Shown here: in pieces, positions 40,161-62,251 of the stretch
Layout: every line of letters begins with the position of its first letter
Position numbering within the stretch: position 1 is the stretch's first letter
Source of the DNA: an uncultured virus (IMG/VR IMGVR_UViG_2706794685_000007)
Lineage: Duplodnaviria > Heunggongvirae > Uroviricota > Caudoviricetes
DNA: 64,000 nucleotides
IMG/VR virus record: IMGVR_UViG_2706794685_000007
Direction: 5' to 3' (one strand)
Program-made: the position numbers and the translations under genes
Notes under the pieces: generated by a model
Database searches by the model: none
Told to the model about the DNA's origin: nothing
What the model saw: the letters and a program-made list of their open reading frames with translations, nothing else

Positions 40161-40364
40161 GATTAATTCCTTATCGTAAATAACAAATTGTTTTCTTGTT
40201 GGCGTTAATTATCGTTGTACGAATAAGGCGTCAAAGTGGAAAGTTGCGGTAGCCGGACGGGAACAGGTGGGTTTGTCGGTTGCCTGGAGGTAAGAGGTTG
40301 GTGTTTTTAGCCTGCGGGAAACAGGATGGTCATTTAAGGCCACCAGCAGTGGTGGCCTTAATAA

Positions 40365-40508
40365 TTATCGACCGATTACGCTAAGGATCTTTTCCTCAAC
40401 TGATTTGTTGTTGCGACTAAACTGCCTTGCGTATCTGATGACAGAAGAGGCGTTTTGCTTTCTGACTATCTCGGCTCTTTCCTTCAGGCGTTTCTTGAAA
40501 TCGCCCAT
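40365..40508 (-). CDS. Small basic hypothetical protein (47 aa)
   Basis: Manual translation MGDFKKRLKERAEIVRKQNASSVIRYARQFSRNNKSVEEKILSVIGR, directly after the upstream stop. Confidence 0.5.
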   Translation of the reverse strand: MGDFKKRLKERAEIVRKQNASSVIRYARQFSRNNKSVEEKILSVIGR

Positions 40509-40510
40509 AT

Positions 40511-40885
40511 TTACCACCAGGCGCAGAAGGTCAGTCTGTTATTGTGAAAGTCGTGGTTCTTAATCAGCTCTTCCACAAGTTTTTTCAACTCCCCCACGTC
40601 ATGCCAGTACCCTTCATCGTACTCCTGACTGCCGAAGAAAAAACCTTCACAGGTAGGTAAGTACTCTTCGCAGTTACTTTCGTTCATGTGCATCAAATGA
40701 GCTTTCAGAGCACAAATGTCATTCATCGTTAATTCTAAAAGCTCACAATTTTTGACTTCACCTACGTTGCGTTCCATCCACCCAAAGAGAGCATTGAACT
40801 TACGGAAGTAAGCAACCTTCTTTCTGGATGCATCGTTATTCAGATCGTTTTTTGGTTGCGTCTCAATGTAGATATCAAGTCCCAT
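40511..40885 (-). CDS. Conserved phage hypothetical protein (MGLD...GFFFGS...Y type)
   Basis: MGLDIY, YFRKFNAL, LPTCEGFFFGSQEYDEGY. Confidence 0.7.
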   Translation of the reverse strand: MGLDIYIETQPKNDLNNDASRKKVAYFRKFNALFGWMERNVGEVKNCELLELTMNDICALKAHLMHMNESNCEEYLPTCEGFFFGSQEYDEGYWHDVGELKKLVEELIKNHDFHNNRLTFCAWW

Positions 40886-60063: not shown

Positions 60064-60657
60064 TTACTGTTTGTTATAAACAAAACCAATATCTTTCTTG
60101 TGAGGCATATCTGCTGCTGAAAAAGCTGCGATCTTCGCGAGTCGATCACATATTTCATTTTCACGATGCCCGGCGTGACCTTTAACCCACTTCCAGCGAA
60201 CATTATGTCGACTTGCGGCCTCATCCAGACGCTTCCACAGATCAACATTCTTTACCGGTTTTTTGTCAGAAGTCATCCATCCATTGCGTTTCCACCATTT
60301 CATCCACTGTGTCATGCCGTTTTTCAGATACTGGCTATCAGAGTGCAAAATAACGTTGCATGGATATTTCAAACGCTCCAGCCCGATAAGTGCCCCCATC
60401 ATCTCCATGCGGTTATTGGTGGTGCTATGAAAACCATCTGAGAACTCGCGTTCCTCGCCACGATACTGGAGAACGATACCGTAACCGCCCGGGCCACCCG
60501 GATTTTTAAGGCAAGAGCCATCACTAAAGATTTTCACGGTTTTAAGCTGGGGATTGAACTCTACGACAGGCGTTGTGGGATTGGTGCGGGGAGAATTTTT
60601 GTTTTTGTCTTTTTTGCGAGTTTTTGCTTGCGGTCGGGCTGGTGTCTTCGTTGTCAT
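60064..60657 (-). CDS. rnhA: Ribonuclease HI
   Basis: [55 protein letters not shown] before ATG 60657; basic N-terminal extension. Confidence 0.95.
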
Positions 60658-60744
60658 ATAAACTCCTGAATCAAGCGCCGCGCCGATTTTTCCTCGCGCG
60701 TGCGCACACGCGTGCGTGTTAATAATTATTAAAATAAACAAATT

Positions 60745-61196
60745 ACTTCCCAGAACAGGTTTTTATAAACCTGAACTGAACGAACGAAGTGAGTGAAGTT
60801 CACCTCGAACGAAGTGAGAGGTTGTCTTTTCAGGTAATACTCTCCCAGGGAGGTGAGTATAAAATTCCTCACCAACCTGGTCGTTTCATAACCTGAAAAG
60901 CTATGGTCTAAGTCTACTGCCAGCTTAGACTTGGGAAGTTATGGATGACAGCACCCCAGAACCGAGATCTTCCCACACTTTATGAAGGGGAGTACTGGAT
61001 TCAACCTCTCGAAACACCCCAGACTCGACAATCATAAAGTGACCCTTGTCTCCGCTCACTTTGGTTCCCCCTTCCCCGACACCTAAACGGCACCGGTTCT
61101 ACGCTGGTAGTGAGCTTTTTTAAACCTGACGCCAGTGACGCTTACCCCCACCCATCAGGTCGAGTCTCCAGTCTACGACTGGAAACTATCAGATCT
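60745..61196. other. Highly base-paired non-coding element (structured RNA or ssDNA)
   Basis: At least ten complementary segment pairs of 5-10 bp and no ORF of 60 aa or more in the track. Confidence 0.6.
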
Positions 61197-61238
61197 TAGC
61201 ACTTACAATTCATCTTATGAATAGTTTGTACTTATCTA

Positions 61239-61469
61239 TCATTTCGATTGATTATTTTCTCGACCATGTAGTTGAACATTCAAGGCAAACACCTCGTTGA
61301 TCAACTCACCTAAAAGCTGTTCAACAAGTTCGCGATGCTCCCCAAGATGCAAGCACTTAATTGCCCACTCGTACAAGTTGAAAGCCTGCTCACGATCTTT
61401 CATCATTTCACGAGCCTGGGCCAGAAAATCGCTGTCTACGAGCGCAACGACATTAGTCGGGTATGACAT
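61239..61469 (-). CDS. Hypothetical protein
   Basis: AAGGA RBS before ATG 61469. Confidence 0.6.
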   Translation of the reverse strand: MSYPTNVVALVDSDFLAQAREMMKDREQAFNLYEWAIKCLHLGEHRELVEQLLGELINEVFALNVQLHGRENNQSK

Positions 61470-61657
61470 GTTGGTTTCCTTAAAGTGGTTCATAAAATCG
61501 ATTTTAAAGCGTCTGGGAAGGGGGGTCTAGTGGATTCTGTAGTGATGTTCAGGTCTGGAGTCTCTGATACAAAACAGCCTGCTTCCGTATATTAATAATT
61601 AATATGTAGTTATTTATATATATACAGAAGCAGGCTAATTACAGACGCCAGAACAAA

Positions 61658-62251
61658 CTAAGCAGCCTTCTTTGATGGTCTTTTTTTCCTGATCACATTC
61701 GCAGGATCATACCCTCCCAGACTTTTCATGACGTCCAAAGGGATCTTGCTTATAGAGTGCCCAGCGTCCTGACAGAATCCTCGAAAAACAACGAGCATAC
61801 TGCCACCGGGGTTGATGTTTACTTCTACCTGACCCAAATTGACGTCAGGCTCGACAAACGCTACGCGGCCACCAGACAGAATAATCGTCTCATTCGCATA
61901 CTCTGTTGCACGCTCATACCACTTTGTATCGAGGGATTGAGGAATTAGCATCACTGTAGTAACTCCGCGAGCCTGCTCACGTATAGCAGCATCAATCCAG
62001 GGGGAGATTTTGGAGTAGGGTGGATTGAGGAAGGCAATTGTACCTGGCTGTCCCCATTCAGATTTCAAAGCATCACGCTCAATGCCTATGAAATTAGGCA
62101 GCTTTGCGTTGTCCTTGTTGCAGGCAACGTCAACATCAAATGTCACTCCAAGATAACGTTGAATGGCAGAAAACAGCCAATCAGGTGTTCTCCAGAGGTC
62201 ACGAAGAGAGTTGTCGCGCTTTCGCTGTTTGATTTTTTCGGCTGCAATCAT
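61658..62251 (-). CDS. Phage N6-adenine DNA methyltransferase
   Basis: DLWRTPDWLF, FDVDVA, FLNPPYS, DTKWY, GRVAF. Confidence 0.9.
   Translation of the reverse strand: MIAAEKIKQRKRDNSLRDLWRTPDWLFSAIQRYLGVTFDVDVACNKDNAKLPNFIGIERDALKSEWGQPGTIAFLNPPYSKISPWIDAAIREQARGVTTVMLIPQSLDTKWYERATEYANETIILSGGRVAFVEPDVNLGQVEVNINPGGSMLVVFRGFCQDAGHSISKIPLDVMKSLGGYDPANVIRKKRPSKKAA

What the first reader, a model, noticed from the sequence alone, without database searches (positions are those of the whole stretch)
60745..61196. ~450-nt multi-stem non-coding element directly upstream of RNase H: candidate RNA-primed origin or novel structured RNA/ssDNA
Seen pairings: 60745-52/60932-39, 60756-62/60767-73, 60826-35/60891-900 (10 bp), 60845-49/60876-80, 60852-57/60868-73, 60906-12/60924-30, 60976-85/61032-41 (10 bp), 61054-60/61109-15, 61167-73/61177-83. 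61021-29/61159-67 crosses another stem (pseudoknot or switch) and partly overlaps 61124-29/61155-60. Two hairpins display CGAACGAAGTGAG (60781, 60806), a tandem-GA/GAA-loop motif like plasmid ssi/pas hairpins. The minus strand has G-tracts (61067-77, 61145-53), and an alternating GC run (60695-60718) and an AT tract separate the element from rnhA. Established: ColE1 uses a folded G-tract RNA, an R-loop and RNase H for priming. Inference: an RNA + RNase H replication-priming module, or an undescribed ncRNA.
Basis: partly seen in the sequence, partly recalled or inferred. Interest (0 to 1): 0.82.

Follow-up and report, generated by a model that had tools for sequence, protein, structure and literature searches.

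The report
Undescribed structured RNA of SSU5-type phage-plasmids
The 450-base "gap" before the RNase H gene of this phage-plasmid is a gene for a large, intricately folded non-coding RNA that is better conserved than the neighbouring protein genes, matches no RNA family in the Rfam library, and is probably not a replication primer.

Summary
Window 60727-61186 (minus strand) is a multi-helix element that folds far better than shuffles.

- **Structure:** across 57 distinct relatives, 127 consensus pairs are 99.5% kept, and 13 pairs show two-sided compensatory changes against 1-4 in slid controls.
- **Strand:** G-U pairs assign it to the minus (gene-sense) strand, 99.5% paired against 87.9% on the plus strand.
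- **Conservation:** the core is 90-97.6% identical between lineages whose flanking genes are 73-85% identical.
- **Coding:** it is non-coding, with no 3-base periodicity, and the annotated 44-aa ORF is broken in 15 of 57.
- **Known families:** there is no Rfam match.
- **Expression:** in published data for the 96.7%-identical phage-plasmid Cyrano, the feature inside it has roughly 6-46-fold higher expression values than its flanks in the plasmid state.
- **Spread:** it occurs in 687 PLSDB plasmids and in 232 of 5,426 complete E. coli genomes.

The "RNA + RNase H priming module" is not. A RepA gene is annotated 17 kb away in the relative Cyrano, and 8 of 42 metagenomic relatives keep the RNA but have lost rnhA.

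Function is unknown. My best guess is a trans-acting RNA that displays invariant loops. The twin 13-nt motif recurs in T4-like phages.

Two earlier agents of this scan noted this RNA in passing on other DNA.

The parts
60727..61186 (-). Proposed ~460-nt structured non-coding RNA (5' end about 61186, 3' end in the U-rich tract 60727-60744). Both ends are inferred, not mapped.
   Evidence: Folding z = -7.25. 127 consensus pairs in 18 helices, 99.5% paired, 13 pairs with two-sided changes against 1-4 in slid controls. The same helices are 87.9% paired if read on the plus strand. Core identity 90-97.6% against 73-85% in the flanks. Expression of CYRAN_81 in Cyrano.
61193..61221 (-). Promoter-like element: weak -35 TTCATA (61221..61216), 17-nt spacer, extended -10 TGcTAAGAT (61201..61193).
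   Evidence: T, A, A, T of the -10 hexamer (q41, 42, 45, 46) are invariant in 57 sequences although the surrounding leader varies; coordinates. It is inferred. It scores 8 of 12 here and so falls below the threshold of the scan, which did not list it.
61223..61236 (.). Degenerate copy of the 14-bp palindrome GGTAAGTACTTACC (perfect in SSU5-type relatives), centred about -40 from the inferred start. Possible regulator site.
   Evidence: Alignment A1. The palindrome has 11 sites with up to 3 mismatches in the window against 1.29 expected, 0 of 100 shuffles. This copy itself has more than 3 mismatches and is not among the 11.
61163..61186 (-). 5' hairpin H1. Its sequence differs completely between lineages but the pairing is kept.
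   Evidence: 5 of 8 pairs have two-sided changes.
60806..60818 (-). Twin motif copy 1: CUCACUUCGUUCG, flanked by ACCU/AGGU.
   Evidence: Exact repeat, invariant in 57 sequences. The same hairpin occurs in two unrelated metagenome contigs.
60781..60793 (-). Twin motif copy 2: CUCACUUCGUUCG within UUCACUCACUUCGUUCGUUCA.
   Evidence: The extended form occurs in T4-like phages and in 23 other viral contigs against 0 for the reversed control.
60745..60773 (-). 3' hairpin (60755-60773, covarying) and UGGGAAGU (60745-60752), which can pair with ACUUCCCA at 60932-60939.
   Evidence: Helix 18 has one pair with a two-sided change (UA to GC in 9 sequences). The long-range complement is listed.
60727..60744 (-). 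U-rich tract, proposed terminator tail.
   Evidence: U-rich in most lineages although the sequence varies. The terminator scan did not call it. Read counts fall sharply between CYRAN_81 and rnhA.
60691..60726 (-). AT-rich spacer and alternating purine-pyrimidine GC tract between the RNA and the rnhA ribosome-binding site.
   Evidence: Retained, at least in part, in the 8 relatives that lack rnhA.
60064..60657 (-). rnhA: RNase HI with a roughly 39-residue basic N-terminal extension.
   Evidence: PF00075, E = 1.1e-44, residues 40-178.
61239..61469 (-). Conserved 76-aa three-helix protein of unknown function, always upstream of the RNA.
   Evidence: No Pfam family. 27 homologs, those with a source name being enterobacterial 'hypothetical proteins'. 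AlphaFold2 pLDDT 78.9. No PDB fold match at E <= 0.001. Present in 7 of the 8 rnhA-less loci examined.
60937..60968 (-). Protospacer matched by an E. coli type I-E CRISPR spacer (AAG just 5' at 60969-60971).
   Evidence: 28 of 32 bases match the last spacer of the array beside iap.

Best explanation
SHOWN. The element is a conserved, highly structured non-coding sequence whose pairing pattern is that of an RNA read from the minus strand, the same sense as the flanking genes. It is confined to SSU5/pHCM2-type phage-plasmids and is kept under stronger constraint than the adjacent protein genes. In the close relative Cyrano, a feature in its middle is covered far more deeply by RNA-seq than its flanks while the element lives as a plasmid.

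INFERRED. It is its own transcription unit:
- a conserved extended -10 promoter at 61201..61193;
- a start near 61186;
- a multi-domain RNA of about 460 nt;
- an end in a U-rich tract at 60744..60727;
- a GC-rich hairpin region that shields rnhA from read-through.

MOST LIKELY MECHANISM (inference). It acts as an RNA in trans, as a scaffold or decoy that presents invariant single-stranded segments to a protein or RNA partner. 126 of 187 unpaired core columns never vary. The most conserved part carries two copies of a 13-nt motif that T4-like phages and other viral contigs also carry in non-coding DNA. Several mutually exclusive pairings suggest that it can switch shape: three CUCAC-type segments face two GUGAG-type segments, two UGGGAAG segments compete for one CUUCCCA, and a crossing 6-bp helix overlaps helix 2. 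The partner and the biological output are unknown. Candidates are lysogeny or lytic control, exclusion of other phages, or plasmid maintenance.
For: - **Structure:** z = -7.25 on the minus strand. Consensus energy is -149.7 on the minus strand against -114.5 kcal/mol on the plus strand.
- **Covariation:** on 57 distinct sequences, 99.5% of 7,236 cells are paired (0 of 500 shuffles as high). 13 pairs and 173 cells show two-sided changes, against 1-4 pairs and 2-22 cells when partners are slid.
- **Strand:** 8 invariant and 28 variable G-U pairs. The same helices read on the plus strand are only 87.9% paired.
- **Conservation:** an island of 90-97.6% identity against 73-85% in flanking genes.
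- **Non-coding:** variable columns fall 35/32/31 by phase. The 44-aa ORF is broken in 15 of 57.
- **Promoter:** the -10 positions are invariant in an otherwise variable leader.
- **Expression (PMC9928086; sections 6 and 18 and supplement rows read):** CYRAN_81 is 12-fold above the prophage median in Table 1. Raw counts for CYRAN_80/81/82 are 62/1187/78 in one sample. The log2(fpkm+5) excess over rnhA is 2.5-5.5 units in the ten samples.
- **Independence from rnhA:** 8 of 42 relatives keep the RNA without rnhA.
- **Unpaired constraint:** 61 of 187 unpaired core columns vary, so 126 are invariant.
- **Motif beyond this family:** the exact 13-mer occurs 3 times in phage EC-W2 and 2 times in phage JC221, with 0 in controls. 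23 viral contigs hold the 18-nt form against 0 for the reversed control. In one family the motif sits in the loop of a hairpin followed by a U-run.
Against: - No transcript end, strand or size has been measured. The paper does not say whether counting was strand-specific.
- The RNA-library contigs I laid cannot show strand, ends or even transcription. One of them runs on into rnhA and the upstream ORF.
- The promoter scores only 8 of 12 in this window and was not listed by the scan. No intrinsic terminator was called on the minus strand of the element.
- Most of the core never varies, so 10 of 18 helices show no change that tests pairing (8 of them never vary at all), and none of the proposed alternative pairings is tested by covariation.
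- No partner was found. There is no complementarity longer than 13 nt elsewhere in the Cyrano genome. In one E. coli chromosome the 13-mer has no exact copy on either strand.
- The RNA could instead be a processed 3' part of the small ORF's mRNA, or act in cis.
Confidence: 0.6

Rival explanations
1. RNA-primed or R-loop origin. The transcript hybridises to its template through its G-tracts, RNase H trims it, and the 3' end primes DNA synthesis at the AT-rich and GC-tract region. This would serve lytic rather than plasmid replication.
For: - G-tracts lie at 61145-53 and 61065-77, with an AT-rich spacer and an alternating GC tract just downstream.
- rnhA follows the RNA in 34 of 42 relatives.
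- The phage-plasmid carries UvsW, UvsY, gp32-like and RecA-like genes. From recalled knowledge, not tested here, T4 starts replication from R-loops at its uvsY origin and UvsW removes them.
- In the T4-like phage EC-W2, the 13-mer forms an inverted repeat around an 85-nt AT-rich stretch just upstream of the probable uvsY gene.
- On the plus strand the 13-mer can form a C-G-closed GAA-triloop hairpin. A review links hairpins of this kind to the G4 origin, RSF1010 ssiA and N4 promoters (passages read).
Against: - RepA is annotated 17 kb away in Cyrano.
- The RNA is abundant in the plasmid state, when lytic replication is off, while rnhA is nearly silent.
- rnhA is lost in 8 of 42 relatives while the RNA is kept.
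- Selection acts on RNA folding along the whole length, including G-U pairs. A primer that must hybridise to DNA does not need this.
- No promoter for an antisense control RNA was found inside the RNA, and there is no Rfam RNA I match.
- The GAA hairpins lie on the template strand, not on the strand an R-loop would displace.
Confidence: 0.12
2. Cis-acting leader or attenuator. The structured RNA is a long sensor that decides whether transcription coming from upstream, or from its own promoter, reads on into rnhA and the downstream genes.
For: - It sits between co-directional genes and ends in a U-rich tract followed by a GC hairpin.
- Mutually exclusive pairings are possible.
- RNA-library contigs join the element to rnhA, and in one run also to the upstream ORF.
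Against: - The element keeps its full sequence where rnhA has been replaced by unrelated DNA.
- A 460-nt near-invariant sensor with no match to any riboswitch or leader family in Rfam would be unprecedented.
- Counts fall sharply at its 3' side in all ten samples, so no read-through condition has been seen.
Confidence: 0.15
3. DNA-level element. The conservation reflects protein-binding sites or single-strand DNA hairpins (for example primase or polymerase entry sites at the twin GAA-loop motifs), and transcription is incidental.
For: - The plus strand also folds better than shuffles, z = -5.9.
- The twin motif region is the longest invariant stretch.
- The motif occurs in both orientations in T4-like phages.
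- There is literature on GAA mini-hairpins at priming and promoter sites.
Against: Compensatory changes that pass through G-U intermediates, and 8 invariant G-U pairs, fit RNA of one strand and not duplex DNA sites or the plus strand. The transcript is abundant.
Confidence: 0.08
4. Type III toxin-antitoxin-like pair. An abundant structured RNA, a leaky terminator, then a nuclease gene (rnhA) that the RNA holds in check.
For: The layout promoter, RNA, terminator-like tract, nuclease gene, with the RNA far more abundant than the nuclease mRNA.
Against: - There is no tandem array of 30-40-nt repeats, only two 13-nt motifs 25 nt apart.
- The downstream protein is an ordinary RNase HI domain.
- The RNA persists without rnhA in 8 of 42 relatives.
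Confidence: 0.03

Closest known systems
ColE1-type primer RNA II with RNase H processing, antisense RNA I and Rop (textbook knowledge, recalled)
   Same: A folded RNA of about 450-550 nt with G-rich segments, transcribed towards an AT-rich region. An RNase H gene and a small helical protein gene lie beside it.
   Different: The relative Cyrano has a RepA gene 17 kb from its copy. No RNA I-like antisense promoter or Rfam hit was found. The small protein has no Rop family or fold match. The RNA is kept where rnhA is lost. No sequence similarity.
Large structured non-coding RNAs of unknown function found on phages and mobile elements (GOLLD, ROOL, HEARO, OLE and the like; names recalled, families held in Rfam)
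   Same: Several hundred nucleotides, many helices, strong conservation of unpaired nucleotides, carried by a phage, function unknown.
   Different: No match to any of the 4,227 Rfam models, even at E <= 10 on the element alone. The host range is Enterobacteriaceae phage-plasmids.
Single-strand initiation and hairpin-promoter signals built on C-GAA-G mini-hairpins (G4 origin, RSF1010 ssiA, N4 virion RNA polymerase promoters; review PMC13037366, passages read)
   Same: On the plus strand each 13-mer can form C-G, tandem G-A, A-T and C-G pairs around a GAA triloop.
   Different: Here the motifs lie inside a transcribed RNA gene on its template strand. Covariation points to the other strand as RNA. 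No primase or polymerase link was tested.
Lysogeny-expressed regulatory RNAs of plasmid prophages (P1 c4, P4 CI, N15 CA RNA; recalled)
   Same: An RNA made from the resident plasmid prophage while lytic genes are silent.
   Different: Those RNAs are much shorter and act by base pairing to repeated target sites in the same phage. No target longer than 13 nt was found in the Cyrano genome.

Membership tests
ColE1-type RNA II / RNase H origin | Antisense RNA I transcribed from a promoter inside the 5' part of the primer RNA | tested here: not met
   The only plus-strand promoter-like site near the 5' part (61180-61209) would start outside the RNA and read away from it. No RNA I or other antisense-RNA family was found in Rfam.
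ColE1-type RNA II / RNase H origin | Replication without a plasmid-encoded initiator protein; the primer RNA region is the origin | tested here: not met
   RepA is annotated at 60633-61688 of Cyrano, and the element lies at 78478-79060. Whether the element acts as a second, lytic origin was not testable.
ColE1-type RNA II / RNase H origin | Obligatory partnership with RNase H | tested here: inconclusive
   rnhA follows the RNA in 34 of 42 relatives and is missing in 8 of 42. The host RNase HI could substitute.
ColE1-type RNA II / RNase H origin | Rop-like helical-bundle protein | tested here: not met
   The 76-aa neighbour has no Pfam family. Its three-helix model has no PDB match at E <= 0.001.
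Any described RNA family (Rfam 15) | Covariance-model score at or near the family's gathering threshold | tested here: not met
   The best hits are microRNA and sRNA models at 15-24 bits against thresholds of 46-81. No tRNA or tmRNA was found.
ssi / mini-hairpin initiation signals | C-G-closed GNA triloop hairpin on the strand that becomes single-stranded | tested here: inconclusive
   The sequence fits on the plus strand (read directly; motif class). The plus strand is the template strand of the RNA gene.
ssi / mini-hairpin initiation signals | Primase- or polymerase-dependent initiation at the hairpin | not testable with these tools
   Needs in vitro priming or an M13-type ssi rescue assay.
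Type III toxin-antitoxin antitoxin RNA | Tandem array of near-identical repeats about 30-40 nt long, processed by the adjacent toxin | tested here: not met
   Only two 13-nt copies 25 nt apart. The neighbour is RNase HI, PF00075.
Protein-coding gene (annotated as CYRAN_81 in Cyrano and covered by 'hypothetical protein' annotations in PLSDB records) | Open frame kept in relatives, with third-position bias of changes | tested here: not met
   The frame is broken in 15 of 57. Variable columns fall 35/32/31 by phase. No Pfam family.
PeSL cassettes of T4-type phages | Early promoter plus stem-loop rich in poly-G/poly-C | tested here: not met
   The passages read in PMC2839356 describe G/C-tract stems. 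The shared 13-mer is different. The figures with the sequences were not visible.

The most novel reading that the evidence does not exclude
This is a new class of large, tertiary-structured RNA that is a core, lysogeny-expressed function of one of the commonest phage-plasmid families in Enterobacteriaceae. It works as the RNA subunit of a ribonucleoprotein, or as a ribozyme or molecular decoy, and recognises its partner through a 13-nt loop module. Unrelated lytic phages (T4-like) and environmental viruses carry the same module. The module would then mark a shared and so far unknown piece of phage RNA or DNA biology, for example a common host factor that both kinds of phage must capture, or a means by which the resident plasmid interferes with incoming T4-like phages.
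Probability: 0.3. Interest if true: 0.9.

Novelty: categorically new. Interest (0 to 1): 0.78.

Why it matters
SSU5/pHCM2-type phage-plasmids are widespread in E. coli, Klebsiella, Enterobacter and Salmonella. I found the element in 687 PLSDB records and in 232 of 5,426 complete E. coli genomes. [quoted passage not shown]

Their best-conserved 400 bases turn out to be an unannotated RNA gene that automatic pipelines either skip or mislabel as a small "hypothetical protein".

A large RNA with this many invariant unpaired nucleotides usually has a sophisticated job. Finding it would open a handle on how these elements control their double life as plasmid and phage. The 13-nt module shared with T4-like phages gives a concrete, testable entry point. 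The RNA is also a good candidate for structure determination and for an Rfam entry.

Tried and rejected
- **Known RNA families.** Rfam at E <= 1 on 3 kb and E <= 10 on the element gave only chance-level microRNA and sRNA hits. ARAGORN found nothing in the window.
- **Coding.** Rejected.
- **Rop-like partner.** The 76-aa neighbour has no family and no fold match.
- **Antisense targets.** The longest complementarity to the rest of the Cyrano genome is 13 nt, at chance level. A search of all complete E. coli genomes at E <= 10 found nothing chromosomal except a CRISPR spacer. The 13-mer has 0 exact copies in one E. coli chromosome and 5 one-mismatch copies, against 4 for the control.
- **Distant homologs.** An nhmmer profile of the element against every locus held found only the 20-35-nt motif outside the family, apart from one marginal 97-column alignment. 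Eleven loci with upstream DNA lack the element: nine encode more distant RNase H relatives (38-49% identity), none with a comparable co-directional upstream gap, and two (L065, L066) encode a closer relative, 89% over residues 24-184.
- **Sequencing runs.** The raw-read run X10 laid no read, so it is no test. Contigs of runs X1-X3 hold the stretch but cannot show strand, ends or transcription.
- **Papers that did not bear on it.** The PeSL paper (passages) describes different stems. A preprint on another phage-plasmid family, p-p47 (passages), is irrelevant.
- **Literature searches for a description of this RNA.** Searches found none. One search was badly framed and uninformative.

Full report
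**What the window is.** The 701 bases around the finding are 100% identical to Escherichia phage CMS-2020a. They are 82-98% identical to 11 other records of SSU5-type phages, including SSU5, Cyrano, PhiR41_1 and Klebsiella phage-plasmids; all 12 records cover at least 80% of the query. All local genes lie on the minus strand:
- a phage Dam methylase at 61658-62251;
- a 76-aa ORF at 61239-61469;
- the 581-nt gap at 60658-61238;
- RNase HI at 60064-60657.

Annotated relatives leave the gap empty or place a small "hypothetical protein" in it.

**Checking the observation.** The gap folds far better than dinucleotide shuffles on both strands: z = -5.9 on the plus strand and -7.25 on the minus strand, with 0 of 100 shuffles as good.

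**Relatives.**
- A distant BLAST finds the gap in 687 PLSDB plasmids, 650 of them covering at least 80%: Klebsiella 310, Escherichia 195, Enterobacter 88, Salmonella 49, Citrobacter 24, Cronobacter 10 and others.
- At least 80% of the RNA is held in 232 of 5,426 complete E. coli genomes, always on plasmids. RefSeq annotates nothing there.
- Of 79 IMG/VR loci fetched through their RNase H relative, 67 hold the element. One locus has no upstream DNA. The other 11 lack it; nine of them encode more distant RNase H (38-49% identity), none with a comparable co-directional upstream gap, and two (L065, L066) encode a closer relative, 89% over residues 24-184.

From the 70 copies I kept 59 distinct sequences. 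I left out L004, which duplicates the window, and L046, which is cut by its contig end. The remaining 57 were aligned as A1.

**Conservation.** Across eight lineage representatives, mean pairwise identity is 73-85% in the flanking genes and 90-97.6% in 61143-60787. It drops again in the AT-rich spacer. Where RNase H proteins are 76-84% identical, the RNA is 86-92% identical.

**It is RNA, on the minus strand, and non-coding.**
- The consensus fold is stronger on the minus strand, -149.7 against -114.5 kcal/mol.
- On A1, 127 pairs in 18 helices are paired in 99.5% of 7,236 cells.
- 13 pairs and 173 cells show changes on both sides. With partners slid by 1-3 columns these numbers are 1-4 pairs and 2-22 cells. 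0 of 500 column shuffles reach the observed paired fraction, the number of two-sided cells or the covariation score.
- Helices 1, 2, 3, 8, 14 and 18 carry the compensatory changes. Eight helices never vary, and two more vary only by unpaired cells, so these ten say nothing about pairing.
- Eight pairs are always G-U and 28 are sometimes G-U. The same helices read on the plus strand pair in only 87.9% of cells.
- Variable columns show no codon phase (35/32/31). 18% of paired and 33% of unpaired core columns vary, so 126 unpaired columns are invariant.
- The 44-aa ORF that Cyrano annotates as CYRAN_81 is frameshifted or stopped in 15 of 57 sequences.

**Anatomy (inferred from A1; coordinates).**
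- *Promoter.* The leader varies between lineages, but the T, A, A, T positions of a -10 hexamer never do. With the TG two bases upstream this reads as an extended -10 (61201..61193) behind a weak -35 (61221..61216). It scores 8 of 12 in this window and the consensus scan did not list it.
- *Possible regulator site.* A 14-bp palindrome that is perfect in SSU5-type sequences lies about 40 bases upstream of the inferred start. Copies with up to three mismatches occur 11 times in the window against 1.29 expected. In Cyrano, copies with up to two mismatches lie close upstream of several genes, including the putative repressor gene.
- *RNA body.* It begins with a hairpin whose sequence is replaced wholesale between lineages while staying paired. 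A near-invariant core of about 420 nt follows. It ends with a covarying hairpin, UGGGAAGU, and a U-rich tract.
- *Downstream.* The terminator scan did not call the U-rich tract. An AT-rich spacer, the alternating GC tract and a GC hairpin then precede the rnhA ribosome-binding site.

| Feature | Length (nt) | Raw counts in one sample | log2(fpkm+5) over ten samples |
|---|---|---|---|
| CYRAN_80 | 231 | 62 | not listed here |
| CYRAN_81 | 135 | 1187 | 6.8-10.35 |
| CYRAN_82 (rnhA) | 594 | 78 | 2.6-5.0 |

The methods section does not say whether counting was strand-specific. So the data show a sharply bounded, abundant RNA, and the strand rests on the covariation.

Three runs on record as RNA, from two studies, hold the stretch as contigs. 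In one, the only contig in 59800-62300 spans 60433-61524. Contigs cannot show transcription, ends or strand.

**Against the RNase H priming model.**
- Cyrano's RepA gene lies at 60.6-61.7 kb and the element at 78.5-79.1 kb.
- Of 42 metagenomic copies with at least 700 nt of downstream DNA, 34 are followed by rnhA. Eight are not: there rnhA is truncated or replaced. The U-tract and at least part of the GC tract remain in all eight, and the small ORF is seen upstream in the seven examined.
- No antisense promoter or RNA I-like match exists.
- The small protein is a three-helix protein with no family or fold match.

A role as a lytic origin is not excluded. The element carries T4-like recombination and replication genes, and the motif described next sits upstream of the probable uvsY gene in a T4-like phage.

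**The twin motif.** The most conserved stretch carries two copies of CUCACUUCGUUCG. Copy 1 is flanked by ACCU/AGGU.
- The exact 13-mer occurs three times in the T4-like Enterobacter phage EC-W2 and twice in Yersinia phage JC221. The reversed control gives none.
- In EC-W2 two copies form an inverted repeat around an 85-nt AT-rich stretch between the capsid vertex gene and the probable uvsY gene, followed by TTGACT-17-TATAAT.
- An 18-nt form that excludes the SSU5 family hits 23 IMG/VR contigs, by my reading about 14 unrelated families. The reversed control hits 0.
- By my count, nine of those 14 families continue with YTCA. None of the 23 contigs has a frame that stays open across the whole locus.
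- In one family the motif lies in the loop of a hairpin followed by a U-run.
- Two soil-type metagenome contigs share the copy-1 hairpin, stem included, and little else.
A review (passages read) links such mini-hairpins to the G4 origin, RSF1010 ssiA and N4 promoters.

I cannot tell which strand or molecule matters in the other phages.

**Alternative pairings.**
- AAGUGAGC can pair with either motif copy, and GAGGUGA with either neighbour.
- Two UGGGAAG segments compete for one CUUCCCA.

None of these alternatives is decided by the data.

**Verdict.** This is a real, previously undescribed large structured RNA gene. Its function is unknown, and it is more likely a trans-acting RNA than a replication primer. 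Literature searches found no description of it. Two earlier agents of this scan noted the same RNA in passing on other DNA, while studying the neighbouring GC tract.

Noticed in passing
window 60937-60968 (minus); locus L263 1500-1531: The last spacer of the type I-E CRISPR array beside iap matches the RNA gene in 28 of 32 bases, with an AAG just 5' of the protospacer. Such matches lie at 30 chromosomal places among 5,426 complete E. coli genomes; I examined one of them. E. coli lineages have therefore met this element and sampled its most conserved gene.
   Followed up: partly
window 21930, 22252, 24556, 26517, 28024, 39210, 40656, 41446, 55057, 60051, 62266 (14-mers): A 14-bp palindrome of the GGTAAGTACTTACC type occurs 11 times with up to 3 mismatches against 1.29 expected. 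The sites I checked lie close upstream of genes, including the putative repressor gene in Cyrano. It may be an operator or a phage-specific promoter element. A degenerate copy sits about 40 bases upstream of the RNA's inferred start.
   Followed up: partly
L258 1396-1408 and 1505-1517; L260-L262; L269-L291: The 13-nt twin motif and its 18-22-nt extension recur in non-coding DNA of T4-like phages and about 14 families of environmental viral contigs (reversed control: 0). Often a C-GAA-G/C-UUC-G hairpin lies next to it. I found no description of this motif in the papers I read.
   Followed up: partly
L235 1026-1225; L249 1086-1222: Two unrelated 5.5-kb contigs from one metagenome share only a 54-nt segment containing CCCGACCGAAGG...GGGAACCC and the hairpin ACCU-CUCACUUCGUUCG-AGGU that is copy 1 of the twin motif. 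Neither has an Rfam match.
   Followed up: partly
L221, L248, L219, L237, L246, L251, L252, L255: In 8 of 42 metagenomic relatives rnhA has been truncated or replaced by unrelated DNA directly behind the GC tract, so this junction is a hotspot for gene replacement.
   Followed up: partly
Cyrano record 40268-40822 (CYRAN_43): The paper's Table 1 lists this 'hypothetical protein', next to the integrase and tRNA genes, at 723-fold above the prophage background, by far the highest in Cyrano.
   Followed up: no
window 60541-60657 (minus): The RNase HI carries a roughly 39-residue lysine-, arginine- and proline-rich N-terminal extension before the PF00075 domain. This part is the least conserved of the gene (48% identity in the profile).
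   Followed up: no
window 60691-60715: The alternating purine-pyrimidine GC tract is conserved in all lineages and kept, at least partly, where rnhA is lost. Earlier agents of the scan treated it as part of a hairpin behind the RNA.
   Followed up: partly
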